Shown one piece after another: positions 8,072-55,408 of a stretch of DNA of 64,000 nucleotides. Source of the DNA: a virus; the IMG/VR virus record IMGVR_UViG_3300045988_098886; one strand, written 5' to 3'. The notes beneath the pieces were generated by a model. The model was not told the DNA's origin and searched no databases. It was given only the letters and a program-made list of their open reading frames with translations. Position numbers and translations under genes: made by a program. Positions within the stretch are counted from its first letter, which is position 1; the number at the start of each line of letters is the position of its first letter.

Positions 8072-9262
8072 TTAGTCATAATCTCTAATACATTTTAGTA
8101 CTGGCTGCAGTGGAGTTCCTTCTTCTGAATAATAGAAGAACTTAACAGTAGCCATCTTTCCGATAATATCATCGAGATTGTCTCTATATTCCTGCTTTAA
8201 TTCTCTACTTCCCATTGGCTTAGCCTTAAATTCTATCCCATCTTCAGTTACACAGGTGAAACACATATCTTCATCACGAAGACCTTCTGAAATACCAGTG
8301 ATTTCAAATTCCGCATCCTGATATTCCTTGATTTTAATCATGTCATTAGTTCGTTTACCAAAGCCATATAGCTTACTCGGATTACGAATAACAACACCTT
8401 CAAAACCTTCACCTACATACTTATCATGTAACTTTTTAATATTTGCCCAACCACTAACTTCTTCTTGAGGAACAAGTCTTATTTGTAAATCCTTAGTAAG
8501 AATAGGGGCAAATAAATCAGAAGTAATATTTAACTCTTCTGCCATTTCAAGCATTTGCTCATTTCTTTGAGTGAAATCAGCTTCTGCATCCATAATGTCA
8601 TACATCCAAAACTCTAATTCTAGAGTTCTAGGGTCGTCTTGCTCCAATCTTGCAGTACCAGAAATCCATTGAAGTGGTCTACCATGAGAATATAGTTCTC
8701 CGTCAATAGATACATCTGGATGATTCTTAAACCATTCGATTAAAGCTGGATTATTTCTTATGTGTACAGTAGCTGGGTCATAGTCTCCTCCACCTCTACT
8801 TGAAGAATGAACTTCACCATCTTTAAAATAGAAGGAACAGCGGACTCCATCAATCTTACGAGATGCTAGCCACACTTTGACCTTATCATATACACTTGTT
8901 GCAACTTTATTAAAGTCTTTAGCAAGCATATGTTTTTTACAACCATTAGCATCGGTCTTATGCTCTGGAAGAATTTCATCAAGTTGGGCTTTAGTATAAT
9001 CTTCGATTTCTCCCTCAATTAACTTATAGCCTTTATCTTGATATTTTTTCAGGTGGGAATTATATTCGAGTTCTGCCTGTTGTGTGACAGTTCTCTTTAC
9101 CTTACCTTTAGTAATAGTTATATCTGGCTGTGCTGTAACCTTACCTTGATATTGGTAAGTATTTCTTTTAATTGTAAAGCCAGAGAGTTCACTTCCTTCA
9201 CAGGAAATTTCAACTACTCTGATTTTACCCTTTGAGTCTTTAGAAATTAAAGTATTCCTCAT
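8072..9262 (-). CDS. ATP-dependent DNA ligase
   Basis: Motif I ASRKIDGVRC (KxDGxR), motif IV EGVVIR, motif V MIKIKE, followed by an OB-like C-terminal part. Confidence 0.85.
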   Translation of the reverse strand: MRNTLISKDSKGKIRVVEISCEGSELSGFTIKRNTYQYQGKVTAQPDITITKGKVKRTVTQQAELEYNSHLKKYQDKGYKLIEGEIEDYTKAQLDEILPEHKTDANGCKKHMLAKDFNKVATSVYDKVKVWLASRKIDGVRCSFYFKDGEVHSSSRGGGDYDPATVHIRNNPALIEWFKNHPDVSIDGELYSHGRPLQWISGTARLEQDDPRTLELEFWMYDIMDAEADFTQRNEQMLEMAEELNITSDLFAPILTKDLQIRLVPQEEVSGWANIKKLHDKYVGEGFEGVVIRNPSKLYGFGKRTNDMIKIKEYQDAEFEITGISEGLRDEDMCFTCVTEDGIEFKAKPMGSRELKQEYRDNLDDIIGKMATVKFFYYSEEGTPLQPVLKCIRDYD

Positions 9263-17203: not shown

Positions 17204-18799
17204 TTATTGTAATACAATTCTTCCGTCAATAATTTTTGCTCCATCTACAATTGAATAATCAGTACAAGCCGGAGTATTTCCGAAATTCTTGTGAATCCAT
17301 TCAGAACTTCCGAATAAAGAGCCTACTGATTTATATGTAAACCTACGTCCATAGGTTGTTGCAGATTGATGTAAATCTCCCTTTACGAATACAACCTTAT
17401 TTCCAAATATCTGTTTGTTATCAAGATATTCATTAATAAAGTTCTCTGTCTTTACATCTAAAGTCAGAGGAAGATTCTTAAACATATCCTTATTATCCTT
17501 TCCATGACAGAGGACAAATGTTGTGTCTCCTACATTGAACTCTCCAATGAACTTATCAAAGATTGTACAATCTACACCTTTATGAGTAAGAATTGCTTCT
17601 AAAGCTACATTGGCGGCATATCCAAAATCGCCGTCATGATTTGATTCCCCGACACAGATATACTTCATTTTGTTATAGTTCATGTGGTTTAATGTATCAA
17701 AGAATTCTGCCATACATTCGATAAATGTATGGATTTGTTCTTTATTACACATGTTTTGTGGCAAAGAATGTCCACCACGAGTAGTCTGACCATTATATCC
17801 ATCAAGAGAATCTCCAAGATTACAAATATAGATGTTATTGAATCCTCCATATAAAGCATTCAGTCTGAACAATTCATCAGTAATCAGTCTCAATCGTCTT
17901 TCTACTTCAGCCTTATCATAAGGATTAGAATAGATTGACAGCGAAGATACATATGCTCCAATGTGCATATCTGACAGATAAATGATTATATCTTGTTTAC
18001 CACAAGACTTCTTTGGGACATACTTAGTAAGGTTTGTGAGATTCAATCCATCTAATTCAATATGGATTCCTTCTTCCAGTTTTCTTTTCAATTCAACATT
18101 TTCAAGAGCATATTTCTTAAGAAGAAGTCTATCATTTTTAATGGATTGTTCCTCCATTGTTCTAAGGAAATCATTTTCCTTTTCACGCATTTGCATATTA
18201 ACTAACTCTTCTTGAGTGTGTTCCTCAATAATATGAGGTGCAAATGGAGCTACAGCTTTAGTAATACTGAATACTCGGAGAATACGTTTAAAATCAATAA
18301 GAGAATATTCTGGGAAATATCTACTTACTTCTCTTTGAGTAATAGACATTCCATAATATGAATACATACGATGTATGTTGTTCATTTCATCCCTTGTAAG
18401 TCTTCCTGTAAGAGGGGCCTTGTCCTTTCTTAGAACTTTAAATTCATAGAACTTAATCTTTCCGTCCTCATCACGAATAAGATTAACACTATTTCTATCG
18501 TCGTCTGCTTCAAGTTGGACTTGTTCCAAAGTAGTATCATCAGATACTTGTTCTTCAACCGGCTGTGAGAATATAGAACTCTTATCTTCAAGAGATTTTT
18601 CCCACAATTCATTGATAGCATCCATATCTTCTTTACTTACCATTCCTTCTTTGTAATGATTGGAGATATTTTCATACGTATCTTCAAAATACTTTTTAGG
18701 AAGTTTATTGGCTTTAGTAAAGTCCGACTTTGTAGTTTCTAGTTCAACTAACTGTGATAAACGTGTGATAAAATTAGTAATTGTTTTTTTGTAAATCAT
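17204..18799 (-). CDS. metallophosphoesterase-domain protein (Mre11/SbcD-like nuclease candidate)
   Basis: YLSDMHIG (DxH), NLGDSLDG (GDxxD), GESNHDGD (GNHD-like), CHGKD, KGDLHQ. Confidence 0.55.
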   Translation of the reverse strand: MIYKKTITNFITRLSQLVELETTKSDFTKANKLPKKYFEDTYENISNHYKEGMVSKEDMDAINELWEKSLEDKSSIFSQPVEEQVSDDTTLEQVQLEADDDRNSVNLIRDEDGKIKFYEFKVLRKDKAPLTGRLTRDEMNNIHRMYSYYGMSITQREVSRYFPEYSLIDFKRILRVFSITKAVAPFAPHIIEEHTQEELVNMQMREKENDFLRTMEEQSIKNDRLLLKKYALENVELKRKLEEGIHIELDGLNLTNLTKYVPKKSCGKQDIIIYLSDMHIGAYVSSLSIYSNPYDKAEVERRLRLITDELFRLNALYGGFNNIYICNLGDSLDGYNGQTTRGGHSLPQNMCNKEQIHTFIECMAEFFDTLNHMNYNKMKYICVGESNHDGDFGYAANVALEAILTHKGVDCTIFDKFIGEFNVGDTTFVLCHGKDNKDMFKNLPLTLDVKTENFINEYLDNKQIFGNKVVFVKGDLHQSATTYGRRFTYKSVGSLFGSSEWIHKNFGNTPACTDYSIVDGAKIIDGRIVLQ

Positions 18800-47390: not shown

Positions 47391-47490
47391 ATAATCAGAT
47401 GGCTTTCTGCCTGTTTTACCTCTGACAGAAGAGGGGTCTACTTATCCTAACTCTAGTATCATTGTTGTTACATTGCTGTAAGCCATCTTT
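47391..47490 (-). ncRNA. ACAGCAA-family stem-closed small RNA, member 1 (Y-RNA-like architecture)
   Basis: 5' AAAGAUGGCUU-ACAGCAA .. AAGCCAUC-UGAUUAU 3'. It ends exactly at the tRNA-Gln 5' end. Confidence 0.6.
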
Positions 47491-47498
47491 ACTATTTT

Positions 47499-47867
47499 TT
47501 AAATAAAGTCTATCGCTTCTTTAAGTCCTTTTTCAAGAGCTTCTTCATAAGAATCATATCTCTCAAAGGAAGAGACACGTAGAGCTCCGTCATACCAAAT
47601 TTCATAATCCCATTTCTTTGAATATACTATGTCATAATCAACTATAACTATAACATTTTTTCTATTTCGCAACCATGTTTGGGCTTCAGATTGAAGAGGT
47701 ATTGCATATTGATTGTTTTCAAGGTTTGAATTTGAATGACCAACGAAATCAGCATCTATTGTACTATGTGTTGCACCGTGGTCTTCATAAACCCATTCAC
47801 ACCATTCATTAAATCCTTTTTCTTTTAACAGCTTGGCTGTTTCCAGAGTAACATATGATTTATCCAT
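47499..47867 (-). CDS. hypothetical protein (122 aa)
   Basis: ORF track. Confidence 0.6.
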   Translation of the reverse strand: MDKSYVTLETAKLLKEKGFNEWCEWVYEDHGATHSTIDADFVGHSNSNLENNQYAIPLQSEAQTWLRNRKNVIVIVDYDIVYSKKWDYEIWYDGALRVSSFERYDSYEEALEKGLKEAIDFI

Positions 47868-48304
47868 TATGTCATAAGTTGTTGACTTGTTTCTACTGCT
47901 ATTTTATCAGCCCTTGCATTAAATTCATCTTCAAAATGGCCTTTTACCCAGCCAATACGAAGATTACCAATAAGGCTTCGCTTCTCTTTAACAATATTAT
48001 CAAGTTCTTGTAAAACATCTAAATTTGTATTTCTTTTATATTTTAATTCTCCTATTCGAGAAGTTCCAATTGCATACATTGAGTCACTAATAATAGTAAC
48101 ATCTTCCATATAAGAAGTTATACATTTAAATGCAGCAATGATAGCTTTAAGCTCCATTCTGTTATTTGTTGTATTCTTATAGCCTTTAGAAACTTCTGCA
48201 ACTTTAATAAGTTTTTTATCTTCTTCCTTTACAAATACTACCCCGATTCCTCCTTGGTTCAGGGCACTACTGTATGCGCCATCAGTATAAATTCTATATT
48301 TCAA
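47867..48304 (-). CDS. rnhA: ribonuclease HI
   Basis: IYTDGAY (D), NNRMELKA (E), IISDSMY (D), GHFEDEFNARADKIA (H..N..D). The track start is a TTG codon. Confidence 0.85.
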   Translation of the reverse strand: MKYRIYTDGAYSSALNQGGIGVVFVKEEDKKLIKVAEVSKGYKNTTNNRMELKAIIAAFKCITSYMEDVTIISDSMYAIGTSRIGELKYKRNTNLDVLQELDNIVKEKRSLIGNLRIGWVKGHFEDEFNARADKIAVETSQQLMT

Positions 48305-48306
48305 GA

Positions 48307-48717
48307 TTATTTTTCTTCTTGTGCTTTGCGCACTGTAATATAAGAGTCTCTACCAAGACAGGTTGCGATTCTTAGTAAATCATCGTCACTATCAACAACA
48401 ATTTTATTAAGAATGTAAGCATCCATTTCGGAGAGAATTACCATTTCACCATAAGTATCAACATACTTCTTTTTCCAGAAAACTAATTGAGGTTTATAAC
48501 GCCTAACAGCCCACTTCATTGGAGTAAGTTGTTCATCGGGTTCTCCGGTTTTGAATCCATCAGACTGCATTTCTTCGCAAACATCTTGAATAAAGAATCC
48601 AAAATAGTAAGCTCTAACTATGTCATCGTCTATAAATTCATCATAGTATTTGTCATTTGCGTACATTTCTTGTACAAAACGCTTTTTCCAATCTTCTGAT
48701 ATTTTTAATGAAATCAT
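48307..48717 (-). CDS. hypothetical protein (136 aa)
   Basis: ORF track. Confidence 0.6.
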   Translation of the reverse strand: MISLKISEDWKKRFVQEMYANDKYYDEFIDDDIVRAYYFGFFIQDVCEEMQSDGFKTGEPDEQLTPMKWAVRRYKPQLVFWKKKYVDTYGEMVILSEMDAYILNKIVVDSDDDLLRIATCLGRDSYITVRKAQEEK

Positions 48718-48744
48718 AAATTCTTAATCTTTAATTGTTGTAAG

Positions 48745-48829
48745 TGGAGGGTGTCAGATTCGAACTGACGGACCCCGAAGGGCCGGCGCCTTAGCAGAGC
48801 GCTGGTTTAAACCACTCACCCAACCCTCC
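48745..48829 (-). tRNA. tRNA-Ser (GCU), class II
   Basis: Acceptor GGAGGGU/ACCCUCC, anticodon loop CUGCUAA, long variable arm CGGCCCUUCGGGGUCCG, T arm GUCAG-UUCGAAU-CUGAC. Confidence 0.9.
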
Positions 48830-48834
48830 TTCCA

Positions 48835-49074
48835 TCAACCTAACAAGTCGGTTAACTTGTTGAGTGTAGTTTCATTCTTTTCTGCTACTTCTTCAAGAGC
48901 TTTCTTCTCTGCTAGTGCAGCATCAGCTTCTTGTTGTTTGATTGCAGCTTGTTCTCTAGCTTTGGTAATTACTCCGGACAAACCAGAAACAGTGTTCTTA
49001 AATACCTTCAATAAGTTGTCGGCAGATGTTGCTAATTCAGCAGCAGTGTTAGCTTTCTTTGAAATAAGTGACAT
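48835..49074 (-). CDS. hypothetical coiled-coil protein (79 aa)
   Basis: ORF track. Confidence 0.5.
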   Translation of the reverse strand: MSLISKKANTAAELATSADNLLKVFKNTVSGLSGVITKAREQAAIKQQEADAALAEKKALEEVAEKNETTLNKLTDLLG

Positions 49075-49102
49075 AATCTAAAAAATTTAATTGTTAATAA
49101 TG

Positions 49103-49184
49103 TATCCGAGGTGAGATTCGAACTCACACGAGCTTAGCTCATTAGTTCCTAAGACTAACGCGGCTACCATTTCGCCACTCGGAC
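49103..49184 (-). tRNA. tRNA-Leu (UAG), class II
   Basis: Acceptor GUCCGAG/CUCGGAU, anticodon arm UUAGU-CUUAGGA-ACUAA, variable arm UGAGCUAAGCUCGU. Confidence 0.9.
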
Positions 49185-49186
49185 AA

Positions 49187-49270
49187 GTAGCAAGGAGTCC
49201 ATAGTGGGCTGCAGGACGTCTAAATCCACAGCGAACTAAAACAATGGAAGATTTCGGGAGACTCCTTGCG
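49187..49270 (-). other. stem-closed structured leader upstream of tRNA-Leu (no ACAGCAA motif)
   Basis: A 10-bp helix GCAAGGAGUC/GACUCCUUGC encloses about 60 nt, between the stop of 49277..49546 and the tRNA. Confidence 0.35.
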
Positions 49271-49276
49271 AATATT

Positions 49277-49546
49277 TTAGTTGTGGGCTCTTAATAGCTC
49301 CCCATATTTGTAGTGATTGCAATACCTATGTAAATAGGCAATGTAGACGTACTTATCCTTTATTAAATCGTAGTACTTCTGTTGAAAGCGAAGAACAGAA
49401 TCTCTGTCTCCATTTAAAAATCCAACATGGTACTCTGCAACTGAAGGATGTACAAAGATACTACTTTTAGTCGACTGTGCAAAGACAATCGCCATAAAAA
49501 ATGTTAAAATCAATATCAGTATTCTGTTAGACTTTATAATGCTCAT
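49277..49546 (-). CDS. secreted/membrane protein (89 aa)
   Basis: ORF track. N-terminal hydrophobic segment. Confidence 0.5.
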   Translation of the reverse strand: MSIIKSNRILILILTFFMAIVFAQSTKSSIFVHPSVAEYHVGFLNGDRDSVLRFQQKYYDLIKDKYVYIAYLHRYCNHYKYGELLRAHN

Positions 49547-49823
49547 ATAGCAACGAAATTAAATTTGGATTAATCCATTTCTGCGTGTCTATTGTTCTAA
49601 ATGGATGCAGGAAATCGCTTACTACACGTTCATTATCAAGATACCAATCAATTTTGTTTATCTCAATTTCAAGGTCTTTGACAGACCTCTCATCGGGCAG
49701 AGACTCACAAATTCTATCAATCCTGTTATTAAGTCTCCTAGAGGACACTACTAAACAGATTATCATTGCTACTGCTCTTACAAAGTAAATCATAAGAAAC
49801 AGACATATAAAAAGATTCATCAT
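49527..49823 (-). CDS. membrane protein (98 aa)
   Basis: ORF track. N-terminal TM segment. Confidence 0.5.
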   Translation of the reverse strand: MMNLFICLFLMIYFVRAVAMIICLVVSSRRLNNRIDRICESLPDERSVKDLEIEINKIDWYLDNERVVSDFLHPFRTIDTQKWINPNLISLLYEHYKV

Positions 49824-50776
49824 AAGCTCATTAGTTTTTCGTAAGCCGCTGTTAGTTCCTTAAATTTCTCTTCACTACCACCTCTATCAGGGTGATAAAC
49901 AAGAACTAATTTCCTATAAGCTGCTTTAATTATTTTCTTATCAGTTGTTGGAGAAATTTGAAGAATTGTGTAAAGAGAAGCATAGGGATTAATTGTTTCT
50001 TGTTGACGTTTAGCTTGTTCTCTTGAGAAATTATCCCACCAACTCTGGTATTGGTGATTAAACCCTGCAAAATCATCATTGAACTCAAATCCTTGACTGC
50101 CATAGAATCTGGCTCTCTGATATGCATTTTCTTGTCTAATTCTTTCTCTTTCCTTTCTTTCACGCTCCATTCTCTCTTCCCATTCCCTTTGCGCTTTTCT
50201 TGCTGCTTCTTGTGCCTTTCTTATGTTTTCCTCTACTTTAGCGGGAATTTCATAAAATATATGGTCAAGAGTTTTATCAACAACATTCCATAAAATAGTA
50301 ATGTGAATGGGCTTGCTAATAGCATACTTCATTCCAGAATCCCAGAGATTTCCTTTCACATTAACGTATACAGAAATGTTCTGACGATTTTCCTTTAAAC
50401 CTTTCTCTATAGCTTCTATAACGGCATAGAAATAAGGTTCTCTCTTCCTTTCAAGAAGTTTCAATACAGCTTTAAATTGTGGAATTCTTTCTTTATCAAG
50501 TTGGCTACTCAACAAATAAGCAAACCATTTAAAATGATTGTACTTCTTTAATTCAGAGAAATTACACTTTATAAGAGAATGTTCAGGTTCAAAGTCTGAT
50601 TCTTCGACAAAATGAGCTCCACTGAAGAAATTATAATATTCAAAATCAATATTGTATTTCCTACAAGCATATATAAACGCTTTATCTCTACTTGTAATAA
50701 TGTCTCTTTCTTCTCCCTCATTTAGATTAGAAGAGCCATTAAAGTATTTTAAAGAAATCTTTTTAAAAACATTCAT
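49820..50776 (-). CDS. J-domain (DnaJ-like co-chaperone) protein
   Basis: C-terminal YTILQISPTTDKKIIKAAYRKLVLVYHPDRGGSEEKFKELTAAYEKL with the HPD tripeptide. Confidence 0.85.
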   Translation of the reverse strand: MNVFKKISLKYFNGSSNLNEGEERDIITSRDKAFIYACRKYNIDFEYYNFFSGAHFVEESDFEPEHSLIKCNFSELKKYNHFKWFAYLLSSQLDKERIPQFKAVLKLLERKREPYFYAVIEAIEKGLKENRQNISVYVNVKGNLWDSGMKYAISKPIHITILWNVVDKTLDHIFYEIPAKVEENIRKAQEAARKAQREWEERMERERKERERIRQENAYQRARFYGSQGFEFNDDFAGFNHQYQSWWDNFSREQAKRQQETINPYASLYTILQISPTTDKKIIKAAYRKLVLVYHPDRGGSEEKFKELTAAYEKLMSL

Positions 50777-50802
50777 TGTCTCATCTATTTAGTTGTTAAA
50801 CG

Positions 50803-50876
50803 TGGGCCCCACCGGACTTGAACCGATAACCTCCTGATTATGAGTCAGATGCTCTGACCGATTGAGCTAGGGGCCC
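50803..50876 (-). tRNA. tRNA-Met or Ile2 (CAU), elongator type
   Basis: Acceptor GGGCCCC/GGGGCCC (G1-C72, so not an initiator), anticodon arm UCUGA-CUCAUAA-UCAGG. Confidence 0.85.
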
Positions 50877-50908
50877 AATAAAAAAGGACAGCGATTAAAC
50901 TGTCCTTT
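50877..50908 (-). terminator. rho-independent terminator
   Basis: RNA: AAAGGACAG-UUUAAUCG-CUGUCCUUU followed by UUUAUU. Confidence 0.6.
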
Positions 50909-50925
50909 CTTTTTAATTTCTTCTT

Positions 50926-51357
50926 TTACAAGGAAAGGATTTCCTCTTCCTCTTGCTTTTTAATTTCTTCTTCTTCGTCTTCAACAAGAGTGATACCTAA
51001 GCCCCACACTTCAGCAAGTTCTTTTGGCATACTGATAGCTTCTTCAGGAAACCATTCGTTGTGAGTTTCAATGGCGATTTTCCAATCTACCAATGTGTCA
51101 CGGAGTTCACTTTTCTTGTTTTGAATTTCTTCCACAAAACGTTTGGGATTGAAATCCTTACTTACCGGAGATAACGAGGTTGTGCTGTTGATAGATAAAT
51201 CCATCAAATTTGTAAGCTCGTTGATAATACCTTGAGCCTTACGTTTACTGTCAGCAATTAATGCTTCTTGTTCTTGTTTTACAGTATTAGCAATACCTCT
51301 AGCACGAGCTGCTAACAATGATTGACCACTACGTGATAATACCTTTGCAAATTTCAT
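50926..51357 (-). CDS. hypothetical protein (143 aa)
   Basis: ORF track. Confidence 0.6.
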   Translation of the reverse strand: MKFAKVLSRSGQSLLAARARGIANTVKQEQEALIADSKRKAQGIINELTNLMDLSINSTTSLSPVSKDFNPKRFVEEIQNKKSELRDTLVDWKIAIETHNEWFPEEAISMPKELAEVWGLGITLVEDEEEEIKKQEEEEILSL

Positions 51358-51379
51358 TTACGTAAATTTTTTTTATTTA

Positions 51380-51946
51380 TTAAACATTCCAAACATACCT
51401 AGCTTTGTTTGCATAAATGGCATCAAATACCAATTGTCCAAACTGTGTAGCTACATACAATGCAGTTTCTTCATCCTTACAGGCAAGACAGCCCACATGG
51501 GCATAGGCATAGCCGACCCCATTAAGAGAATTGAAGCAACCAAGGCCAGCATTACCGCCGTCATCAGCGCGGCCGCCAAGCAGATAGTATCTTTCTCCTT
51601 CTGATGTGAATTTTGCGATGACATTCTTCTTTTCACTGTCAGGCAATTTACTTTGTACATAGAAACGAATCCATGGATACCATACTCTTCCTTCTGTAAG
51701 ACTGAAATTGTGACCTCTATTCAAAGCCCGCAATACAGTTTGTAATTCATACATCTTACGAACGGAATAAGGAGCAGAGTTAAGCCAATTTGGATATTCT
51801 TCTTCCAACACTTCAAAAGCATCTTCTACAGTTCTTACTCTTGTCTTGATGTCTTCATCAATAAAGCTAATTGTGCGAGTGCTTTCATCATATACAGGAA
51901 TCTTACCTTCTGGAGCCTGTACTTCAATTACATGTTTTTTACTCAT
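51380..51946 (-). CDS. hypothetical protein (188 aa)
   Basis: ORF track. Confidence 0.6.
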   Translation of the reverse strand: MSKKHVIEVQAPEGKIPVYDESTRTISFIDEDIKTRVRTVEDAFEVLEEEYPNWLNSAPYSVRKMYELQTVLRALNRGHNFSLTEGRVWYPWIRFYVQSKLPDSEKKNVIAKFTSEGERYYLLGGRADDGGNAGLGCFNSLNGVGYAYAHVGCLACKDEETALYVATQFGQLVFDAIYANKARYVWNV

Positions 51947-51974
51947 ACTAAATATTTAATAAAGTTTTTAATTG

Positions 51975-52057
51975 AGCCCTCTGTCCGATTCGAACGGACG
52001 TGAGATTTCTCTACACGCTTACAAGGCGCGTGCAATCGACCACTATGCGAAGAGGGC
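51975..52057 (-). tRNA. tRNA-Thr (UGU) with an atypical 14-nt variable region
   Basis: Acceptor GCCCUCU/AGAGGGC, anticodon arm CGCGC-CUUGUAA-GCGUG, variable UAGAGAAAUCUCAC, T arm GUCCG-UUCGAAU-CGGAC, U73. Confidence 0.75.
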
Positions 52058-52186
52058 AGAAACAGATGTGAATTTTTTAAGACGGATTCGAACCGAAATC
52101 TCCTAACACAAGGTTAGGTGTAATAACCCTTATACTATACTTCCTTGTTTGGTGGGAGTTAAAAAGTTTTGCTGTTACACATCTTT
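52058..52186 (-). ncRNA. ACAGCAA-family small RNA, member 2, with a degenerate tRNA-like core
   Basis: 5' AAAGAUGUGUA-ACAGCAA .. ACACAUC-UGUUUCU 3'. The core has a D-like arm UAGU-AUAAGGGUU-AUUA, a hairpin CCUAA-CCUUGUG-UUAGG and the T-loop sequence GGUUCGAAUCC. It abuts tRNA-Thr. Confidence 0.6.
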
Positions 52187-52206
52187 ACATAACCTTGCCA
52201 GGTTGC

Positions 52207-52276
52207 CGAGAGCGGGGGATTCGAACCCCAACTACCACAGTGACAGTGTGGCGTGCAGCCATTACACTACGCCCTC
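52207..52276 (-). tRNA. tRNA-Asp (GUC), compact (T stem apparently 4 bp)
   Basis: Acceptor GAGGGCG/CGCUCUC, anticodon arm CCACA-CUGUCAC-UGUGG, T arm GGGG-UUCGAAU-CCCC, G73. Confidence 0.75.
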
Positions 52277-52428
52277 GATTGTTGGTAGATGTCAGCCGTT
52301 TCTATTCTACCATTGCGTACTACGGTGCTGACTACCGCCTAAGATTTCCATGTCCTCACGTTATCTTAGGGTGTGTATGATTATTATTGCCTAACCAATT
52401 ACTTGGCTGGGAGGATTATGCACAAGAG
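52277..52428 (-). other. structured spacer of about 150 nt between tRNA-Glu and tRNA-Asp
   Basis: Helices CCUAAGAU/AUCUUAGG and GGUAG-UCAGC../..GCUGA-CAU-CUACC. No ORF. Confidence 0.35.
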
Positions 52429-52503
52429 CACTGCCCACGGGATTCGAACCCGTATTAGCATCATCGAAAGTGATGTGTCCTAGTCCAATTAGACGAGAGC
52501 AGC
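52429..52503 (-). tRNA. tRNA-Glu (UUC)
   Basis: Acceptor GCUGCUC/GGGCAGU, anticodon arm CAUCA-CUUUCGA-UGAUG, T arm ACGGG-UUCGAAU-CCCGU, G73. Confidence 0.85.
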
Positions 52504-52633
52504 AGAAAGCGGAAGACATTTTTATACGTTGCTCTACCTGACTGAGCTAAATGAAGCAAGCTTCACTATGAGATTTGAACTCATGACCGACGGCTTACAA
52601 GGCTAGATTGTTATTGCTGTAAGTCTTCCTTTT
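52504..52633 (-). ncRNA. ACAGCAA-family small RNA, member 3, containing a circularly permuted, tetraloop-capped tRNA mimic
   Basis: 5' AAAAGGAAGACUU-ACAGCAA .. T arm AUGAG-UUCAAAU-CUCAU, AGUGAAG-CUUG-CUUCAUU (capped acceptor), UA, D arm GCUC-AGUCAGGUA-GAGC .. GUCUUCC-GCUUUCU 3'. It abuts tRNA-Glu. Confidence 0.65.
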
Positions 52634-52644
52634 ATAAACTTAAC

Positions 52645-53010
52645 CTATTTTTCTTTTGGCTTAAAAATGAATCTGGCAGGATAGCTTTCACCAAGACCTG
52701 GCTTGTCATATTCAACTTCCCAACCATTTTTACGATATTCATCTTCTACATCTAACCATTTGTTTTCTAAGATGATTTGACTAGTCATACTATCGAGAGG
52801 ACAAACGGTAAGAATTTCTTTAATAACTTCACCTTGCAATATTATAGTGCCATAAGCATCATAATTCTTTGCAAGAAGATTGTTAAACGCCTGATACACA
52901 AAATCAGGAATGGACGCGAGTTTATGTTCTTTAGCATCCTTTGGAGTAAATATTTTCATATTCTTTATTTTTAAGTAGTAATCTTTATTAATCCCAAAAC
53001 CAAGCTTCAC
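52645..53010 (-). CDS. hypothetical protein (121 aa)
   Basis: ORF track. Confidence 0.6.
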   Translation of the reverse strand: MKLGFGINKDYYLKIKNMKIFTPKDAKEHKLASIPDFVYQAFNNLLAKNYDAYGTIILQGEVIKEILTVCPLDSMTSQIILENKWLDVEDEYRKNGWEVEYDKPGLGESYPARFIFKPKEK

Positions 53011-53191
53011 GAGCCATAGCTCGTCTCATTGATATTTTGCCATCAAGAATTTTAAACCATTTCTGATGTCTGAAATGTTGGAATCTACACTTTCCATTCT
53101 TTCCTCCACAAACACGATAAGTCCACCGTCTTCCATGAGACCGTTTACCTATGTATTTAGGTGCAATTTTCCATTTCTTTCCGTTACTCAT
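52988..53191 (-). CDS. small very basic protein (67 aa)
   Basis: The ORF track gives 52988..53233, but codons 1-14 overlap tRNA-Ser. I use the ATG at 53191 (MSNGKKWKIAPKY..). Confidence 0.5.
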   Translation of the reverse strand: MSNGKKWKIAPKYIGKRSHGRRWTYRVCGGKNGKCRFQHFRHQKWFKILDGKISMRRAMAREAWFWD

Positions 53192-53206
53192 AGTTATTAA
53201 AGTTAG

Positions 53207-53297
53207 AGGAGGAAGTGGGACTCCAACCCACACACCGCTGTTACACGATTACTGGCGATTTTCAAGACCGCTGCCTTAGCATTAGGCTTATTCCTCC
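53207..53297 (-). tRNA. tRNA-Ser (UGA), class II
   Basis: Acceptor GGAGGAA/UUCCUCC, anticodon arm GCGGU-CUUGAAA-AUCGC, variable region of about 23 nt, T arm GUGGG-UUGGAGU-CCCAC. Confidence 0.8.
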
Positions 53298-53406
53298 AAG
53301 AAGACTACTCATGTAGTCTTTATTCTGCATCAACAAACATAGCCGAAAACAATGATAGAACAATCGCAAAGGCAACTGTTATTCCTATTACCTTTAATAT
53401 GGTCAG

Positions 53407-53880
53407 TCAGTCAAATAGACAAGCCATCGACGCAATGAAGGTAACAACGGCTGCCACACACCTTGTTACTCCGGCAGCTTCTTGGTCTTTAGAAAATTTA
53501 CTAGAACCAGTCCATACAGCCCATATACTTATAATAAGCAGAACAATTCCCACTGCTGCTCCGGCTATCTCTTTATACAGAAGTTTCCATACAACAACAG
53601 TAATTGCAGTTTTACCTAAATCAGTTTCAGATACTCGCACTACCGATTCTTCTACTGCTTTAAGGGTTTCATTCACAGCTGTTCCAATTTCTTTACCTAA
53701 ATAAGCATAGTTGGATACTTCTTTCAGTTCTCCTTCAATGGCTTTCTTAGTGGTTACTTTCTCAATCGAAGACCTGGCTTCTGGTGAGAGTTTGTTGTAA
53801 TCCTCTTGCGAAATTGTTACTTGTGAAAACATAGTCACACTTACTAAAGCCATGACTAAAGCTAAAAATAATCTCTTCAT
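53407..53880 (-). CDS. membrane protein with signal peptide (157 aa)
   Basis: ORF track. MKRLFLALVMALVSVTMFSQ plus C-terminal TM segments. Confidence 0.6.
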   Translation of the reverse strand: MKRLFLALVMALVSVTMFSQVTISQEDYNKLSPEARSSIEKVTTKKAIEGELKEVSNYAYLGKEIGTAVNETLKAVEESVVRVSETDLGKTAITVVVWKLLYKEIAGAAVGIVLLIISIWAVWTGSSKFSKDQEAAGVTRCVAAVVTFIASMACLFD

Positions 53881-53910
53881 CTTTAATTGTTTAAAGTAAA
53901 TAATATTAAG

Positions 53911-53994
53911 GGTGTAGTATGGGATTCGAACCCATGCGTTTCTTATGTACCAGAATCACAATCTGGCGGCATCAACCACTAGCCGAACTACACC
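53911..53994 (-). tRNA. tRNA-His (GUG) with an encoded G-1 and an atypical 14-nt variable region
   Basis: G-1 pairs with C73. Acceptor GUGUAGU/ACUACAC, anticodon arm CCAGA-UUGUGAU-UCUGG, variable UACAUAAGAAACGC, T arm AUGGG-UUCGAAU-CCCAU. Confidence 0.8.
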
Positions 53995-54000
53995 ATGTAT

Positions 54001-54339
54001 TTATTTGTAAATGTAAAGGTCTGATGGGAAATCTCCGTCACATACGTGCTTAGTTACATTACATAACCAAATAGTTGGAACTGGAACATCCTCATAAAGC
54101 GAAATCCATTCATAAGTAGCACCAAACTCGTCTTGTTGTATTTTATGAAAGTGAATATCACCTCTTTCTGGGTCTGGCTCTGTATCAAATCTAAGAGTTA
54201 CAGATTCAAGTCCGGCAGCATACCATTCTAAGAAATCATCCGCACCGTTTACCATTTGTAAATCATCAATGCTTCCAATCCAAGGAATATCAACAAACCA
54301 TCGTTGAGCTAATTTTTTAAATGTTAGTTTAAGTTTCAT
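54001..54339 (-). CDS. hypothetical protein (112 aa)
   Basis: ORF track. Confidence 0.6.
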   Translation of the reverse strand: MKLKLTFKKLAQRWFVDIPWIGSIDDLQMVNGADDFLEWYAAGLESVTLRFDTEPDPERGDIHFHKIQQDEFGATYEWISLYEDVPVPTIWLCNVTKHVCDGDFPSDLYIYK

Positions 54340-54356
54340 ATTATTTCTTTATTAAG

Positions 54357-54430
54357 TGGAGCCAGTGGGACTCGAACCCACGACCTTCTGCGTGCAAGGC
54401 AGACGTTCTAGCCATCTGAACTATGACCCC
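54357..54430 (-). tRNA. tRNA-Ala (UGC)
   Basis: Acceptor GGGGUCA/UGGCUCC with the G3:U70 Ala identity pair, anticodon arm UCUGC-CUUGCAC-GCAGA. Confidence 0.9.
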
Positions 54431-54442
54431 AAATTACGATTG

Positions 54443-54516
54443 AGGGGAGTGTCGGGTTCGAACCGACAACCTATGGGTTAACAGCCCATTGCTCTGCCAA
54501 TTATAGCTAACTCCCC
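54443..54516 (-). tRNA. tRNA-Asn (GUU)
   Basis: Acceptor GGGGAGU/ACUCCCC, anticodon arm AUGGG-CUGUUAA-CCCAU, T arm GUCGG-UUCGAAC-CCGAC. Confidence 0.9.
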
Positions 54517-54592
54517 GAATACGGATTACTGTTTAAATGTGTCGCTATTTTCTGGTGCAATAATTTAAGATAATTGCTGTAAGTAATCCTTG
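54517..54592 (-). ncRNA. ACAGCAA-family small RNA, member 4 (short form)
   Basis: 5' CAAGGAUUACUU-ACAGCAA .. AGUAAUCC-GUAUUC 3'. An internal hairpin GCAAUUAU-CUUAA-AUUAUUGC uses the GCAA of the motif. It abuts tRNA-Asn. Confidence 0.6.
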
Positions 54593-54930
54593 TAATATAT
54601 TTAATATAAAAAACAGTAGTCATTTATAATCCCTATGTGTAGGAACTTACTCCCCCATTGGAAGTGTTCCCGTTGGTAACCAAGTATAGCTATGTGAAGC
54701 TTGCTCAAAGTACCATACAAAAGCTCTCTTTAATAATTTCATAACTTTCATACTTTTTAAGGGTTAAATGAATAAATAAATAATCTAAAAACTCTGGTCA
54801 ACCACACGCATCCCACCAGTTTGTACTTCCCGCTCCTCTTAGTACAAGCGACTCTGTTGTTCCTACAGATTATCTCCTAAGTATCCAAACGAGCTATCAC
54901 CTGCCACAGCCTTGTCCGTTGTGAGTTTTG

Positions 54931-55015
54931 TGTGCCCTCTGGGTCTCGAACCCAGCGTGGAATTACTTCCTCCGGATTAAAAGTCCGGTGCAGTAGCCAG
55001 CTCTGCTCAAGGCAC
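54931..55015 (-). tRNA. tRNA-Lys (UUU) with an atypical 16-nt variable arm
   Basis: Acceptor GUGCCUU/AGGGCAC, anticodon arm CCGGA-CUUUUAA-UCCGG, variable AGGAAGUAAUUCCACG (GGAA-GUAA-UUCC stem-loop). Confidence 0.8.
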
Positions 55016-55040
55016 ATAAAAGTCCTATAAAAATAGGACT
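55016..55040 (-). terminator. terminator-like hairpin immediately upstream of tRNA-Lys
   Basis: RNA: AGUCCUAU-UUUU-AUAGGACU followed by UUUAU. Confidence 0.4.
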
Positions 55041-55066
55041 GACTACTTAAGAAAAAGTAGTGTTTT

Positions 55067-55143
55067 AAAAACAGAACACTATAAAAAGCTGTGTCAAATT
55101 AAAAGTTTGATGCTGAATATAATTTGCTGTAAGTGTTCTTTTT
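55067..55143 (-). ncRNA. ACAGCAA-family small RNA, member 5 (short form)
   Basis: 5' AAAAAGAACACUU-ACAGCAA .. AGUGUUC-UGUUUUU 3'. Confidence 0.6.
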
Positions 55144-55160
55144 ATTAACTAAAATTGAAG

Positions 55161-55242
55161 AGCCCAGAGTCGGATTCAAACCGACGACAGATTTCTCAAA
55201 CGGTTTTGCAGACCGTCCCCTTAATCACTCGGGCATCTGGGC
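55161..55242 (-). tRNA. tRNA-Cys (GCA) with an atypical 14-nt variable region
   Basis: Acceptor GCCCAGA/UCUGGGC, U73, anticodon arm ACGGU-CUGCAAA-ACCGU, variable UUGAGAAAUCUGUC. Confidence 0.8.
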
Positions 55243-55309
55243 ATAAACAGAAGTCTTTTTGTTGACAATATAACCAATTGTTGTATTAAATTTGCTGTGA
55301 GACTTCTTT
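55243..55309 (-). ncRNA. ACAGCAA-family small RNA, member 6 (short form)
   Basis: 5' AAAGAAGUCUC-ACAGCAA .. AGACUUC-UGUUUAU 3'. It abuts tRNA-Cys. Confidence 0.6.
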
Positions 55310-55333
55310 ATATTTTTTAATTGCCGTTTGTTG

Positions 55334-55408
55334 TAGTCCCTGTGTGATTCGAACACACGACCCTTTGAATGTAAATCAAATGCTCTTGACCAGCTGAGCT
55401 AAGGGACT
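55334..55408 (-). tRNA. tRNA-Val (UAC)
   Basis: Acceptor AGUCCCU/AGGGACU, anticodon arm UUUGA-UUUACAU-UCAAA, T arm GUGUG-UUCGAAU-CACAC. Confidence 0.9.

What the first reader, a model, noticed from the sequence alone, without database searches (positions are those of the whole stretch)
52504..52633. Circularly permuted tRNA mimic with a tetraloop-sealed acceptor stem inside family member 3
The RNA order, 5' to 3', is:
- closing strand GGAAGAC
- ACAGCAA junction
- T arm AUGAG-UUCAAAU-CUCAU
- acceptor 3' strand AGUGAAG
- CUUG tetraloop
- acceptor 5' strand CUUCAUU (7 bp including one G-U pair)
- UA
- D arm GCUC-AGUCAGGUA-GAGC
- A-rich junction
- closing strand GUCUUCC

All tRNA elbow elements are present, but the gene order is 3' half before 5' half. 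The acceptor end is capped, so it cannot be aminoacylated. The RNA termini sit where the anticodon arm would be. This is exactly how the tRNA-like domain of YrlA is organised, with the Ro-binding stem replacing the anticodon stem.
Basis: partly seen in the sequence, partly recalled or inferred. Interest (0 to 1): 0.85.

Follow-up and report, generated by a model that had tools for sequence, protein, structure and literature searches.

The report
Phage Y-like RNA with tRNA mimic
This is a real, conserved phage small RNA whose middle folds like a tRNA with its two halves swapped and its acceptor end sealed; it belongs to a large, apparently undescribed family of small RNAs that sit beside a highly diverged Ro60-like protein gene in hundreds of phages, including E. 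coli and Listeria phages.

Summary
On the minus strand, 52629-52511 is a 119-nt unit: 7-bp terminal stem, UUACAGCAAU box, linker, T arm, 7-bp acceptor-like helix capped by CUUG, UA, D arm, A-rich tract, 3' stem strand.

The fold is not chance. Across 38 distinct relatives, 95% of pair cells are paired and 18 of 19 pairs change on both sides. tRNA tertiary nucleotides are near invariant and the 15-48 Levitt pair covaries.

Rfam's YrlA model matches only the tRNA-like core (34.8 bits, gathering score 69). The handle differs from YrlA.

The unit is one of 11 paralogues in this tRNA array. They share the terminal stem and the ACAGCAA box. The same architecture occurs 408 times on the gene strand beside a DUF2828/DUF7788 gene in 80 viral loci, against 17 on the opposite strand.

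The AlphaFold model of that protein matches Ro60 structures over its full length. The RNA family also sits beside the gene in cultured phages, including wV8, Bas63 and A511.

Best reading: a Y-RNA-like partner of a Ro60-like phage protein. It works like YrlA but is not a member of that Rfam family. Binding is untested.

The parts
52623..52629 (-). 5' strand of the terminal (closing) stem, GGAAGAC
   Evidence: It pairs perfectly with 52511-52517. In orthologue L008 it becomes AGAAACC/GGUUUCU, with three pairs changed on both sides. All 11 paralogues have a different 7-9 bp stem at this position.
52613..52622 (-). Conserved single-stranded box UUACAGCAAU (core ACAGCAA 52614-52620), next to the 5' stem strand. 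Proposed protein-recognition handle.
   Evidence: The core is present in 11 paralogues of the window. It is present in 330 unique elements of 80 related loci. It is also present in cultured phages of Listeria, E. coli, Enterococcus, Bacillus, Fusobacterium, Vibrio and Leptolyngbya.
52593..52612 (-). Linker, including the conserved stretch UAGCCUUGUAAGC
   Evidence: The sequence is conserved in orthologues and in distant members of the same subtype: L069, L038, L013. The CUUACA/UGUAAG pairing seen in the single-sequence fold is not conserved in those relatives.
52590..52592 (-). 5' strand of the stub helix (CGU), which stands in for the anticodon stem
   Evidence: It pairs with 52527-52529. All 3 pairs covary across 38 sequences: CG/UA/AU, GC/AU/CG, UA/GC/CG/AU. 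It corresponds to the outer helix of the Rfam YrlA alignment.
52585..52589 (-). Variable-loop analogue CGGUC (positions 44-48); its last C is the Levitt partner of G15
   Evidence: GGUC is near invariant. Position 48 covaries with position 15: G-C in 30 sequences, A-U in 6.
52568..52584 (-). T arm: AUGAG / UUCAAAU / CUCAU
   Evidence: The stem is 99.5% paired, and 4 of 5 pairs change on both sides. Of 38 sequences, T54 is kept in 38, U55 in 37, C56 in 34, A58 in 38, and the G53-C61 pair in 38.
52550..52567 (-). Acceptor-like helix sealed by a tetraloop: AGUGAAG - CUUG - CUUCAUU
   Evidence: All 7 pairs change on both sides across relatives, and 95% of cells are paired. In L008 the loop becomes UACG and 5 of 7 pairs are swapped. 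Cap length varies from 3 to more than 70 nt in relatives.
52548..52549 (-). U8-A9 connector
   Evidence: U8 is kept in 38 of 38 sequences and always pairs with A14 (38 of 38).
52531..52547 (-). D arm: GCUC / AGUCAGGUA / GAGC, with A14, G15, G18, G19 and A21
   Evidence: The stem is 100% paired. Of 38 sequences, G18 is kept in 33, G19 in 35 and A21 in 38.
52527..52530 (-). A26 plus the 3' strand of the stub helix (ACG)
52518..52526 (-). A-rich tract UAUAAAAAU before the 3' stem strand
   Evidence: This is a family feature. An AAAA run lies within 12 nt of the 3' strand in 128 of 330 elements, against 35 of 330 in a control window.
52511..52517 (-). 3' strand of the terminal stem, GUCUUCC
52504..52510 (-). 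7-nt tail GCUUUCU, running up to the 5' end of tRNA-Glu (52503)
   Evidence: G follows the stem in 269 of 330 elements. The distance from an element to the next tRNA peaks at 6 nt (42 cases), then 7 nt (12) and 8 nt (7). RNase P cleavage of the tRNA would therefore define the 3' tail.
59764..61485 (-). Gene of the proposed partner protein: 573 aa, DUF2828 + DUF7788, phrog_850, Ro60-like fold
   Evidence: Pfam; PHROGs. The AF2 model has pLDDT 80 and pTM 0.77. The top 9 PDB matches are all Ro60/TROVE over the full length. A MIDAS-type D365-x-S367-x-S369...T436...D467 is invariant in 26 homologues.
47397..59720 (-). Span holding the 11 paralogous stem-box RNAs: 59720-59625, 58474-58414, 58292-58238, 56117-55975, 55557-55416, 55307-55249, 55139-55073, 54589-54523, 52629-52511, 52184-52064, 47488-47397
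   Evidence: The unit at 55557-55416 is a second permuted tRNA mimic (51.4 bits). The unit at 56117-55975 is a weaker third (25.3 bits).

Best explanation
The segment is a processed small RNA of about 120 nt, built like a bacterial Y RNA.

Its two ends pair into a 7-bp stem. That stem, the adjacent single-stranded UUACAGCAAU box and the A-rich tract opposite form a handle shared by all 11 paralogues. The interior is a cargo module. Here it is a circularly permuted tRNA body (T arm, capped acceptor helix, D arm, three-pair stub in place of the anticodon stem) that folds into a tRNA-like L with an intact elbow.

Proposed mechanism (inferred):
1. The units are cut out of the polycistronic tRNA-array transcript. 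RNase P cleavage of the next tRNA sets the 3' tail.
2. The handle docks on the phage's Ro60-like ring protein (DUF2828/DUF7788, 59764-61485).
3. The tRNA-like module stabilises the RNA and brings a tRNA-recognising partner to the protein. Candidates are a host exoribonuclease such as PNPase, tRNA-modifying or processing enzymes, or a tRNA-directed defence factor.

This would parallel YrlA-Rsr-PNPase particles. The likely biological role is RNA quality control or counter-defence during infection. In phage Bas63 the orthologous protein counters the Ppl defence system.

Shown: the structure, its conservation, the family, its co-location and co-orientation with the gene, and the Ro60-like fold of the model.
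Inferred: RNA-protein binding, the processing route, and the effector role of the tRNA module.
For: Structure:
- Four helices are supported by covariation.
- tRNA tertiary nucleotides and Levitt-pair covariation are present.
- Rfam YrlA aligns to the core.

Family:
- 11 paralogues have different stems and the same box.
- 330 unique elements share the terminal consensus A|AGA...UCU|G.

Association with the gene:
- 408 elements lie on the gene strand, 17 on the opposite strand and 27 in shuffles, across 80 loci whose proteins are 38-100% identical.
- In more than 30 loci with two tRNAs or fewer, the elements still lie within 1-3 kb of the gene.
- The same holds in cultured phages whose proteins are only 21-41% identical:
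  - Lbo-JY46: five tandem units directly 3' of the gene
  - A511: three units directly 5' of the gene
  - Fnu1 and nt-1: one unit in the 5' UTR
  - wV8, VRE9_2, Chewbecca: several units, including a permuted tRNA mimic

Protein:
- The top 9 PDB fold matches are all Ro60, including phage phiLo Ro60 (9KOP), which binds Y-like RNAs and host PNPase.
- The MIDAS motif is invariant.
- Bas63 gp130 is homologous (E = 1e-15), was reported as Ro60-like, and counters Ppl. The same permuted tRNA mimic lies 1 kb downstream of it.

Expression:
- No conserved promoter or terminator lies around the units.
- There is a fixed 6-nt spacing to the next tRNA.

Context:
- PNKP and Thg1-like tRNA-repair genes are in the window.
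- RtcB and an RNA ligase lie next to the gene in A511.
Against: - No experiment links the RNA to the protein; the link rests on co-location.
- The protein is related to Ro60 only at the fold level. A sequence profile against PDB gives E = 0.66, and Pfam TROVE is not matched.
- The handle has no resemblance to the GNCGAA or GGUCCGA Ro60-binding motifs.
- In this window the element lies 7.1 kb from the gene, beyond the 4-kb rule used for YrlA.
- A reciprocal search starting from the RNA box was inconclusive. Only 6 of 19 multi-box loci showed the gene within the short DNA stretches fetched.
- The tight 6-nt spacing to tRNAs would also fit a cis role in tRNA processing.
Confidence: 0.68

Rival explanations
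1. The units are cis-acting leader elements of the tRNA precursor, not trans-acting RNPs. Placed a fixed 6 nt upstream of tRNAs, they would guide or time RNase P and other processing, or protect the precursor. The tRNA-like member would be a processing decoy or checkpoint.
For: Eight of the 11 window members end 5-10 nt before a tRNA. Across loci the spacing peaks sharply at 6 nt. No promoter of their own is conserved.
Against: Most elements (140 of 251 with a downstream tRNA) are more than 100 nt from the next tRNA. Whole arrays exist with no tRNA at all: Lbo-JY46 has five tandem units with GAUA spacers, as do L035, L045, L062, L064 and L068. In Chewbecca and Fnu1 an element follows directly after its own sigma-70-type promoter. 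The box is conserved across hosts with different processing enzymes, which points to a phage-encoded reader.
Confidence: 0.12
2. The tRNA-like RNA is a free-standing decoy or sponge. It would soak up a host tRNA-directed factor (an anticodon nuclease, a tRNA-modifying enzyme or a defence sensor) without needing the Ro-like protein.
For: The elbow and core are intact while the anticodon is absent and the acceptor is capped, as expected of a non-decoding mimic. Phage tRNA arrays are linked to evasion of tRNA-targeting defences (background cited in PMC11482910).
Against: This does not explain the shared handle on the 8 or more paralogues that have no tRNA-like module. It also does not explain why the handle tracks the Ro-like gene across phage families.
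Confidence: 0.1
3. It is a genuine circularly permuted tRNA gene. It would be matured into a functional tRNA by end-joining and opening of the acceptor cap, as in the red alga Cyanidioschyzon.
For: The 3' half precedes the 5' half, and the terminal stem brings the ends together. The window encodes PNKP. Paralogue 55557-55416 even keeps an anticodon-arm-like hairpin.
Against: This element has no anticodon arm, only a 3-bp stub. The cap has no CCA or discriminator logic, and its length varies from 3 to more than 70 nt. No bulge-helix-bulge motif or splicing endonuclease is present. The ligase in the window is a DNA ligase.
Confidence: 0.02
4. It is debris or an artefact: two adjacent tRNA fragments, or a tandem-tRNA junction read as a YrlA-like hit.
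For: Tandem tRNAs are a known false positive for YrlA-type models (PMC4201824). They reach 33-40 bits on my model.
Against: This element scores 73.9 bits. The acceptor strands are joined by only 4 nt. Neither ARAGORN nor Rfam calls a tRNA here. It is framed by a covarying terminal stem plus box. Compensatory changes are conserved in phages with 40-50% protein identity.
Confidence: 0.01

Closest known systems
YrlA, bacterial and phage Y RNA with a tRNA-like domain (Rfam RF02553; Chen et al. 2014, PMC4201824)
   Same: - Terminal stem formed by the 5' and 3' ends.
- A short conserved single-stranded motif near the 5' end.
- Interior order: T arm, then a capped 'AS' helix, then D arm.
- Conserved tRNA tertiary nucleotides and Levitt-pair covariation.
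- Encoded on the same strand as a Ro60-type protein gene.
- Smaller sibling RNAs without the tRNA module (like YrlB).
   Different: - The handle motif is (U)UACAGCAA(U) plus an A-tract, not GNCGAAN0-1G.
- The Rfam score is half the gathering score, and only the core aligns (model positions 23-88 of 114).
- The partner protein is DUF2828/DUF7788, not a Pfam TROVE protein.
- A phage carries up to a dozen or more paralogues, interleaved with tRNA genes at a fixed 6-nt spacing.
Thermus phage phiLo Ro60 with Yrl1/Yrl2 (PDB 9KOP; PMC12135203)
   Same: It is a phage-encoded ring protein (HEAT repeats plus vWA) with phage-encoded Y-like RNAs next to the gene, and it recruits host PNPase. It is the best structural match to the model (E = 1e-7, TM 0.59 normalised by target length).
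   Different: phiLo Ro60 is a recognisable Ro60 homologue, and its RNAs carry the CGAA motif and have no tRNA module. Here sequence similarity to Ro60 is undetectable, and the RNA motif is different.
Bas63 gp130, the Ro60-like anti-Ppl protein of a Felix O1-like coliphage (PhageMaP preprint, PMC11482910)
   Same: It is a homologue of the window's protein (E = 1e-15), in the same position next to the tRNA array. The same stem-box RNAs, including a permuted tRNA mimic, lie just downstream.
   Different: The preprint only guessed that some annotated tRNA genes might be Y RNAs. The candidate partner RNAs found here are unannotated spacers, partly hidden under spurious ORFs such as bas63_0137.
Dictyostelid Class I RNAs (Rfam RF01414; PMC7919456)
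   Same: The short paralogues share:
- the 5' G
- a 6-8 bp terminal stem whose structure, not sequence, is kept
- the box CUUACAGCAA directly after the 5' strand (10 of 11 positions of the Dictyostelium motif)
- a variable AU-rich middle
- an A-tract before the 3' strand
- a 3' CUG(U)
- a length of about 60 nt

Rfam scores run from 18 to 39.3 bits against a gathering score of 41.5.
   Different: Class I RNAs are eukaryotic nuclear genes with a DUSE promoter, are reported as unique to Dictyostelia, and have an RRM protein (Rnp1A) as their known binder. No phage element reaches the gathering score. The element studied here is twice as long because of its tRNA module. Homology versus convergence cannot be decided here.
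Circularly permuted tRNA genes (Cyanidioschyzon merolae type)
   Same: The 3' half is encoded before the 5' half, and a stem joins the transcript ends.
   Different: There is no anticodon arm, no bulge-helix-bulge processing signal, and the acceptor cap is not a processed intervening sequence. It cannot decode.

Membership tests
YrlA (Rfam RF02553) | Score at or above the curated gathering score (69 bits) over the whole model | tested here: not met
   34.8 bits; only model positions 23-88 of 114 align. No YrlA hit reaches the gathering score in the window or in 7 related loci.
YrlA (Chen et al. 2014) | tRNA-like domain in the order T arm, AS stem-loop, D arm, with conserved tRNA tertiary nucleotides and a covarying Levitt pair | tested here: met
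YrlA (Chen et al. 2014) | GNCGAAN0-1G motif near the 5' end (presumed Ro60 contact) | tested here: not met
   The 5' region is GGAAGACUUACAGCAAUAACAAUCUAGCC.... There is no GNCGAA; the conserved motif is ACAGCAA.
YrlA (Chen et al. 2014) | Encoded within 4 kb of, and on the same strand as, a Ro60 (TROVE) orthologue | tested here: inconclusive
   The element is on the same strand but 7.1 kb from the gene in this window. Relatives lie 0-4 kb from it in many loci. The protein is Ro60-like by predicted fold but matches Pfam DUF2828/DUF7788, not TROVE.
YrlA / Y RNA | Bound by the Ro60-type protein in vivo; carries tRNA-type modifications | not testable with these tools
   Needs RIP/CLIP and modification mapping.
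Y RNA (general architecture) | 5' and 3' ends paired in a stem, flanked by a conserved protein-binding motif and a variable interior module | tested here: met
tRNA (RF00005 / ARAGORN) | Cloverleaf with an open acceptor end and an anticodon arm | tested here: not met
   No call at 52511-52629 by ARAGORN or the Rfam tRNA model, even at E <= 10. The acceptor is capped and the anticodon arm is replaced by a 3-bp stub.
Circularly permuted tRNA genes | 3' half upstream of 5' half | tested here: met
Circularly permuted tRNA genes | Complete tRNA body (anticodon arm) recoverable after processing | tested here: not met
   There is no anticodon arm.
Dictyostelid Class I RNA (RF01414) | 5' G, short terminal stem, and the 11-nt motif CCUUACAGCAA next to the 5' strand | tested here: met
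   The element reads G-GAAGAC-UUACAGCAA, so 10 of 11 motif positions match. The family consensus is; the alignment to the model is.
Dictyostelid Class I RNA (RF01414) | Gathering score of 41.5 bits; length 42-65 nt | tested here: not met
   This element is 119 nt and gets no RF01414 hit. Short paralogues score 18-29 bits. The best phage element anywhere scores 39.3 bits.
Ro60 / TROVE protein (for the partner gene) | HEAT-repeat ring plus a C-terminal vWA domain with a MIDAS motif | tested here: met
   The AF2 model's top 9 PDB matches are all Ro60, aligned over 544-615 columns. DxSxS...T...D is invariant in 26 homologues. This rests on a predicted structure, not a solved one.
Ro60 / TROVE protein (for the partner gene) | Detectable sequence homology (Pfam TROVE, or profile against Ro60 sequences) | tested here: not met
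   Pfam gives DUF2828 + DUF7788 only. phmmer and hmmsearch against PDB sequences give Ro60 at E = 0.66 at best.

The most novel reading that the evidence does not exclude
The handle (terminal stem, CUUACAGCAA box, A-tract, 3' CUG) may be the universal recognition module of the DUF2828/DUF7788 branch of Ro60-like proteins. That branch also occurs in giant viruses. As far as I recall, and untested here, it also occurs in eukaryotes.

On that reading the abundant Class I RNAs of dictyostelid amoebae, whose function is unknown and which are thought to be unique to that group, would be the eukaryotic counterparts: Y-like RNAs of a DUF2828 protein. Phages would use the same RNP, with swappable cargo modules such as this tRNA mimic, as a programmable adaptor against host defence.
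Probability: 0.2. Interest if true: 0.9.

Novelty: new variant of a known kind. Interest (0 to 1): 0.8.

Why it matters
Y RNAs and their Ro60 partners are known in animals, in some bacteria and in a few phages.

This finding points to a second, much more widespread phage version. The ring protein is so diverged that only its predicted fold betrays it, and its small RNAs use a different handle. The system is present in hundreds of cultured phages of E. coli, Salmonella, Shigella, Listeria, Enterococcus, Bacillus, Vibrio and Fusobacterium. In every record I inspected, the RNAs are either not annotated or are covered by spurious ORFs.

It supplies concrete candidate partner RNAs for Bas63 gp130, a protein already shown genetically to counter the Ppl defence system. 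A mechanism could therefore be tested at once in E. coli.

It also shows that phage 'tRNA arrays' are mixed arrays of tRNAs and Y-like RNAs. That matters for how tRNA-rich phages are annotated and interpreted.

The unexpected match to Dictyostelium Class I RNAs offers a testable lead on a class of RNAs whose function is an open question.

Tried and rejected
1. Near-identity search of the region against cultured phages found no match. The window is an uncultured gut-type phage, identical to IMG/VR contig 3300045988_090359.
2. Single-sequence folding energy was not significant on its own (z = -1.54).
3. Sequence-level tests for Ro60 homology of the protein were negative: phmmer and a profile against PDB sequences, Pfam TROVE, NCBIfam. 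Only fold comparison shows the relation.
4. Full-length MAFFT alignments of the elements misaligned the 3' strands. I therefore modelled only the 67-nt core.
5. My core model misses the second D-arm type (GGUGUAAUGGUAGCAC) of the wV8, Enterococcus and Bacillus members. It also lets a zero-spacer tandem tRNA reach 40 bits. A cut-off above 45 bits is needed.
6. The CUUACA/UGUAAG hairpin in the minimum-free-energy fold, which would sequester the box, is not conserved in relatives. I rejected it as a family feature.
7. A dedicated promoter or terminator for each unit was not found.
8. A reciprocal retrieval by the 15-mer CTTACAGCAAATTAA was too noisy and the fetched stretches too short. The result was inconclusive.
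9. The ligase at 8072-9262 is a DNA ligase, so I dropped it from the RNA-repair context.
10. The 2011 paper listing the four proteins that bind Class I RNAs is not held.
11. Literature searches for DUF2828, DUF7788, phrog_850, permuted tRNA in phages, and Y RNAs in phage tRNA arrays found no description of this RNA family. This is absence in the held library only.
Full report
**What is there**

The window's right third (about 45-62 kb) is a minus-strand array of 24 tRNA genes interleaved with small ORFs. The window matches IMG/VR contig 3300045988_090359, an uncultured phage.

On the minus strand, 52629-52511 reads:

GGAAGAC-UUACAGCAAU-AACAAUCUAGCCUUGUAAGC-CGU-CGGUC-[AUGAG UUCAAAU CUCAU]-[AGUGAAG CUUG CUUCAUU]-UA-[GCUC AGUCAGGUA GAGC]-A-ACG-UAUAAAAAU-GUCUUCC

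It is followed by GCUUUCU and then tRNA-Glu. That stretch contains a 5-nt variable-loop analogue and one strand of a 3-bp stub helix (CGU/ACG), which takes the place of the anticodon stem.

RNAfold recovers the terminal stem, T arm, capped helix and D arm, but the energy alone is unremarkable (z = -1.54). ARAGORN and the Rfam tRNA model call nothing here.

**Is it more than chance?**

Yes. Ten related viral contigs carry the element. The most diverged orthologue (L008, 77% identical) has compensatory changes:
- three pairs of the terminal stem;
- one pair of the T stem;
- five of seven pairs of the capped helix, whose loop changes from CUUG to UACG.

Members of the same design occur in phages whose neighbouring protein is only 40-50% identical.

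| Test | Result |
|---|---|
| 12-sequence seed, explicit four-helix structure | 92.7% of pair cells paired, against 31-51% when partners are slid |
| 12-sequence seed | 15 of 19 pairs change on both sides; 0 of 500 shuffles as high |
| 38 distinct relatives (53 matches at 40 bits or more) | 95.4% paired; 18 of 19 pairs with double changes |
| 38 distinct relatives | covariation score 0.81, against 0.20 or less for all controls |

That second alignment is fitted to the covariance model built from the seed (R1), so it leans towards the structure. The seed result and the L008 pairwise result do not.

The element scores 73.9 bits on R1. A true tandem-tRNA junction in the window (tRNA-Asn/tRNA-Ala) scores 33 bits, and the worst such case elsewhere scores 40 bits. 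The known tandem-tRNA artefact (PMC4201824) is therefore excluded.

The tertiary signature of a tRNA elbow and core is present across the 38 sequences:
- U8-A14: 38 of 38
- T54: 38; U55: 37; C56: 34; A58: 38
- G18: 33; G19: 35; A21: 38
- Levitt pair 15-48 covaries: G-C in 30 sequences, A-U in 6

**Relation to YrlA**

With permissive thresholds, Rfam's YrlA model hits exactly this core (52524-52592). It scores 34.8 bits (E = 2.5e-4 over 20 kb) and aligns over model positions 23-88 of 114, with the same helix order. This is far below the gathering score of 69, and the Ro60-binding stem does not align. A second, weaker hit lies in paralogue 55557-55416.

YrlA is defined by three things (PMC4201824):
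- adjacency to Ro60;
- a GNCGAAN0-1G motif near the 5' end;
- a T-AS-D tRNA-like domain with a covarying Levitt pair.

The third is met here. The second is not. The first is met only in a looser sense (see the partner protein section below).

**The element is one of a family**

Eleven units on the minus strand between 47.4 and 59.7 kb share a layout:
- an A-rich lead-in;
- a perfect 7-9 bp terminal stem that differs in sequence from unit to unit;
- the box NACAGCAAW directly after the 5' strand;
- a variable interior of 40-125 nt;
- an A-rich tract;
- the 3' strand;
- a G.

Most are 55-67 nt with no tRNA features. Three are longer:
- 55557-55416 is a second permuted tRNA mimic that even keeps an anticodon-arm-like hairpin (51.4 bits on R1).
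- 56117-55975 is a weaker third.
- 52184-52064 encloses a non-permuted, acceptor-less tRNA body.

**The partner protein**

The largest ORF in the array (59764-61485, same strand, 573 aa) matches Pfam DUF2828 and DUF7788 and PHROG 850, 'RNA-binding protein'.

Sequence searches do not connect it to Ro60. Structure comparison does:
- The AlphaFold2 model built from 26 homologues has pLDDT 80 and pTM 0.77.
- Its nine best PDB matches are all Ro60/TROVE structures aligned over the full length. They are Thermus phage phiLo 9KOP, Xenopus 1YVR/1YVP/2I91, Deinococcus 2NVO, and human 9NEN/9NEP/9NFA. Probability is 1.0 and E runs from 1e-7 to 4.5e-5.
- vWA domains follow in the ranking.
- A MIDAS-type DxSxS...T...D is invariant.
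- In the viral structure library, relatives include DUF2828/DUF7788/VWFA proteins of phages and giant viruses, and a Gordonia phage 'Ro-like RNA binding protein'.

**The RNA family travels with the gene**

| Setting | Observation |
|---|---|
| 80 viral loci with relatives of the protein (38-100% identity) | stem + ACAGCAA + complement occurs 408 times on the gene strand, 17 on the other strand, 27 in shuffles; 330 unique elements |
| More than 30 loci with two tRNAs or fewer | elements still cluster immediately 3' of the gene or within 1 kb 5' of it |

The link is therefore to the gene, not to tRNA arrays.

It also holds in cultured phages whose proteins are only 21-41% identical:

| Phage | Elements |
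|---|---|
| Leptolyngbya phage Lbo-JY46 | five head-to-tail units with GAUA spacers, filling the unannotated gap right after the gene |
| Listeria phage A511 | three units in the gap right before the gene; RtcB and an RNA ligase downstream |
| Fusobacterium phage Fnu1 | one unit between a TTGACA-N17-TATAAT promoter and the gene's start codon |
| Vibrio phage nt-1 | one unit overlapping the gene's ribosome-binding site and start codon |
| E. coli phage wV8, Enterococcus VRE9_2, Bacillus Chewbecca | several units each, including a permuted tRNA mimic of about 125 nt with a second D-arm type |

The wV8 mimic is conserved in 239 cultured phage records. In the records listed it is annotated as nothing or as a hypothetical protein.

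A reciprocal retrieval from the RNA box alone was too noisy to decide.

**Expression**

Upstream of the units there is no conserved promoter: information content is about zero beyond position -5. No terminators lie nearby. Where a tRNA follows, the gap peaks at 6 nt (42 cases; 7 nt in 12; 8 nt in 7). Here it is 7 nt to tRNA-Glu.

The simplest reading is excision from the polycistronic array transcript, with RNase P setting the 3' tail. This is inferred.

**Prior knowledge**

- Phage Ro60 with Y-like RNAs is known for mycobacteriophages and others (PMC4201824) and for Thermus phage phiLo, where the RNP binds host PNPase (PMC12135203).
- The PhageMaP preprint reports that Bas63 gp130 resembles Ro60 structurally, lies directly upstream of the tRNA genes, and counters the Ppl defence system. 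It only speculates that some tRNA genes might be Y RNAs (PMC11482910).
- I confirmed three points. bas63_0130 is a homologue of the window's protein (E = 1e-15). Bas63 carries the stem-box RNAs. Its permuted tRNA mimic lies at 82781-82906, overlapped by the ORF call bas63_0137.
- No Rfam family reaches its threshold on these elements.
- Searches of the held literature found no description of the RNA family.

**Mechanism, and how sure**

I consider it settled that this is a structured, selected tRNA-mimic RNA (about 0.95).

That it acts as a Y-RNA-like partner of the Ro60-like protein is the best-supported reading (0.68). In this reading the stem, box and A-tract form the docking handle and the tRNA body forms the effector or stability module. 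It rests on co-location, co-orientation, parallel conservation over very large evolutionary distances and across unrelated hosts, and analogy to YrlA-Rsr-PNPase.

Rivals:
- cis-acting leader elements for tRNA processing (0.12);
- a protein-independent decoy (0.10);
- a true permuted tRNA gene (0.02);
- debris or artefact (0.01).

**Novelty**

It works like YrlA but fails three membership tests: the Rfam score, the GNCGAA motif, and a TROVE-class partner detectable by sequence. I file it as a new variant of a known kind, namely a Y-like RNA family with a different handle and a fold-level Ro60 relative.

**An unexpected resemblance**

The short family members match the Dictyostelium Class I RNA model. 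Shared features are the 5' G, the short terminal stem, CUUACAGCAA, the AU-rich middle, the A-tract and the 3' CUG. Scores run from 18-29 bits in the window to 39.3 bits in Lbo-JY46, against a gathering score of 41.5.

Class I RNAs are reported as unique to dictyostelids, and their function is unknown (PMC7919456). Whether this is convergence or a shared protein-recognition module cannot be decided with these tools.

Noticed in passing
window 58292-58238, 55307-55249, 55139-55073, 54589-54523 (minus strand); L081:6996-7053: The short stem-box paralogues resemble Dictyostelium Class I RNAs (Rfam RF01414) in every conserved feature. Scores reach 29.3 bits in the window and 39.3 bits in Leptolyngbya phage Lbo-JY46, against a gathering score of 41.5.
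   Followed up: partly
window 55557-55416 (minus strand): This paralogue is an almost complete circularly permuted tRNA: an anticodon-arm-like hairpin (UUUCA-CUGCUAA-UGAAG), T arm, long-capped acceptor and D arm. The break lies between the D arm and the anticodon arm. Rfam tRNA scores 25.5 bits, YrlA 24 bits and my model 51.4 bits.
   Followed up: partly
window 52184-52064 (minus strand); also L035:2935-3050, L062:12989-13102, L038:19594-19723: Some stem-box units enclose a non-permuted tRNA body (D, anticodon and T arms) without a normal acceptor end. Rfam tRNA aligns only model positions 6/7-64/65 in three of the four; L035 aligns over the full model (1-71/71, 53.4 bits). This is a different cargo in the same handle.
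   Followed up: no
window 56906-56980 (minus strand): ARAGORN calls a tRNA with a four-base anticodon (gcgt), and Rfam tRNA scores 56.9 bits. The same call appears in relative L002. It could be a frameshift-suppressor-like tRNA or an odd anticodon loop.
   Followed up: no
window 2911-3696 and 3698-4612 (minus strand): Adjacent genes encode a Thg1-like enzyme (tRNA 5'-end repair or 3'-5' polymerase family) and a polynucleotide kinase-phosphatase. This is a tRNA/RNA-repair pair in the same phage.
   Followed up: partly
L082:6489-7040 (Listeria phage A511, NC_009811.2): A ROOL RNA (87.5 bits, E = 3.5e-16, just under the gathering score of 99.1) lies between the tRNA array and the stem-box RNAs and Ro-like gene. 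RtcB and an RNA ligase follow downstream.
   Followed up: no
L008:6396-6944, L013:7309-7860; also L048, L049, L056, L069: Phage-encoded tmRNA genes lie a few kb from the Ro-like gene in several related phages.
   Followed up: no
L086:4935-4975 (Vibrio phage nt-1); L083:7893-7954 (Fusobacterium phage Fnu1): A single stem-box element overlaps the 5' UTR, ribosome-binding site or start codon of the Ro-like gene itself. This suggests autoregulation of the protein through its own RNA handle. Several metagenomic loci also have an element at 0 kb upstream of the gene.
   Followed up: no
L084:7341-7598 (wV8 gp48); L208:3749-3901 (Bas63 bas63_0137): ORFs annotated on the opposite strand overlap the permuted tRNA mimic and are probably spurious. 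Gene-knockout screens that target them would in fact hit the RNA.
   Followed up: partly
L023:561-650, L029:1500-1668, L040:3195-3284, L060:12711-12782: ARAGORN calls tRNAs with anticodon CTA (amber-reading, labelled Pyl) in several related phages. This may be a sign of stop-codon suppression or recoding.
   Followed up: no
L068:16800-17087 and 17286-17527: Two group I introns (92 and 51 bits) lie downstream of the Ro-like gene in one related phage.
   Followed up: no
window 52645-53010 and other small ORFs between tRNAs: Many small ORFs without a family match are interleaved with the tRNAs and stem-box RNAs. A DnaJ-domain protein (49820-50776) and an RNase H (47867-48304) also sit inside the array.
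   Followed up: no
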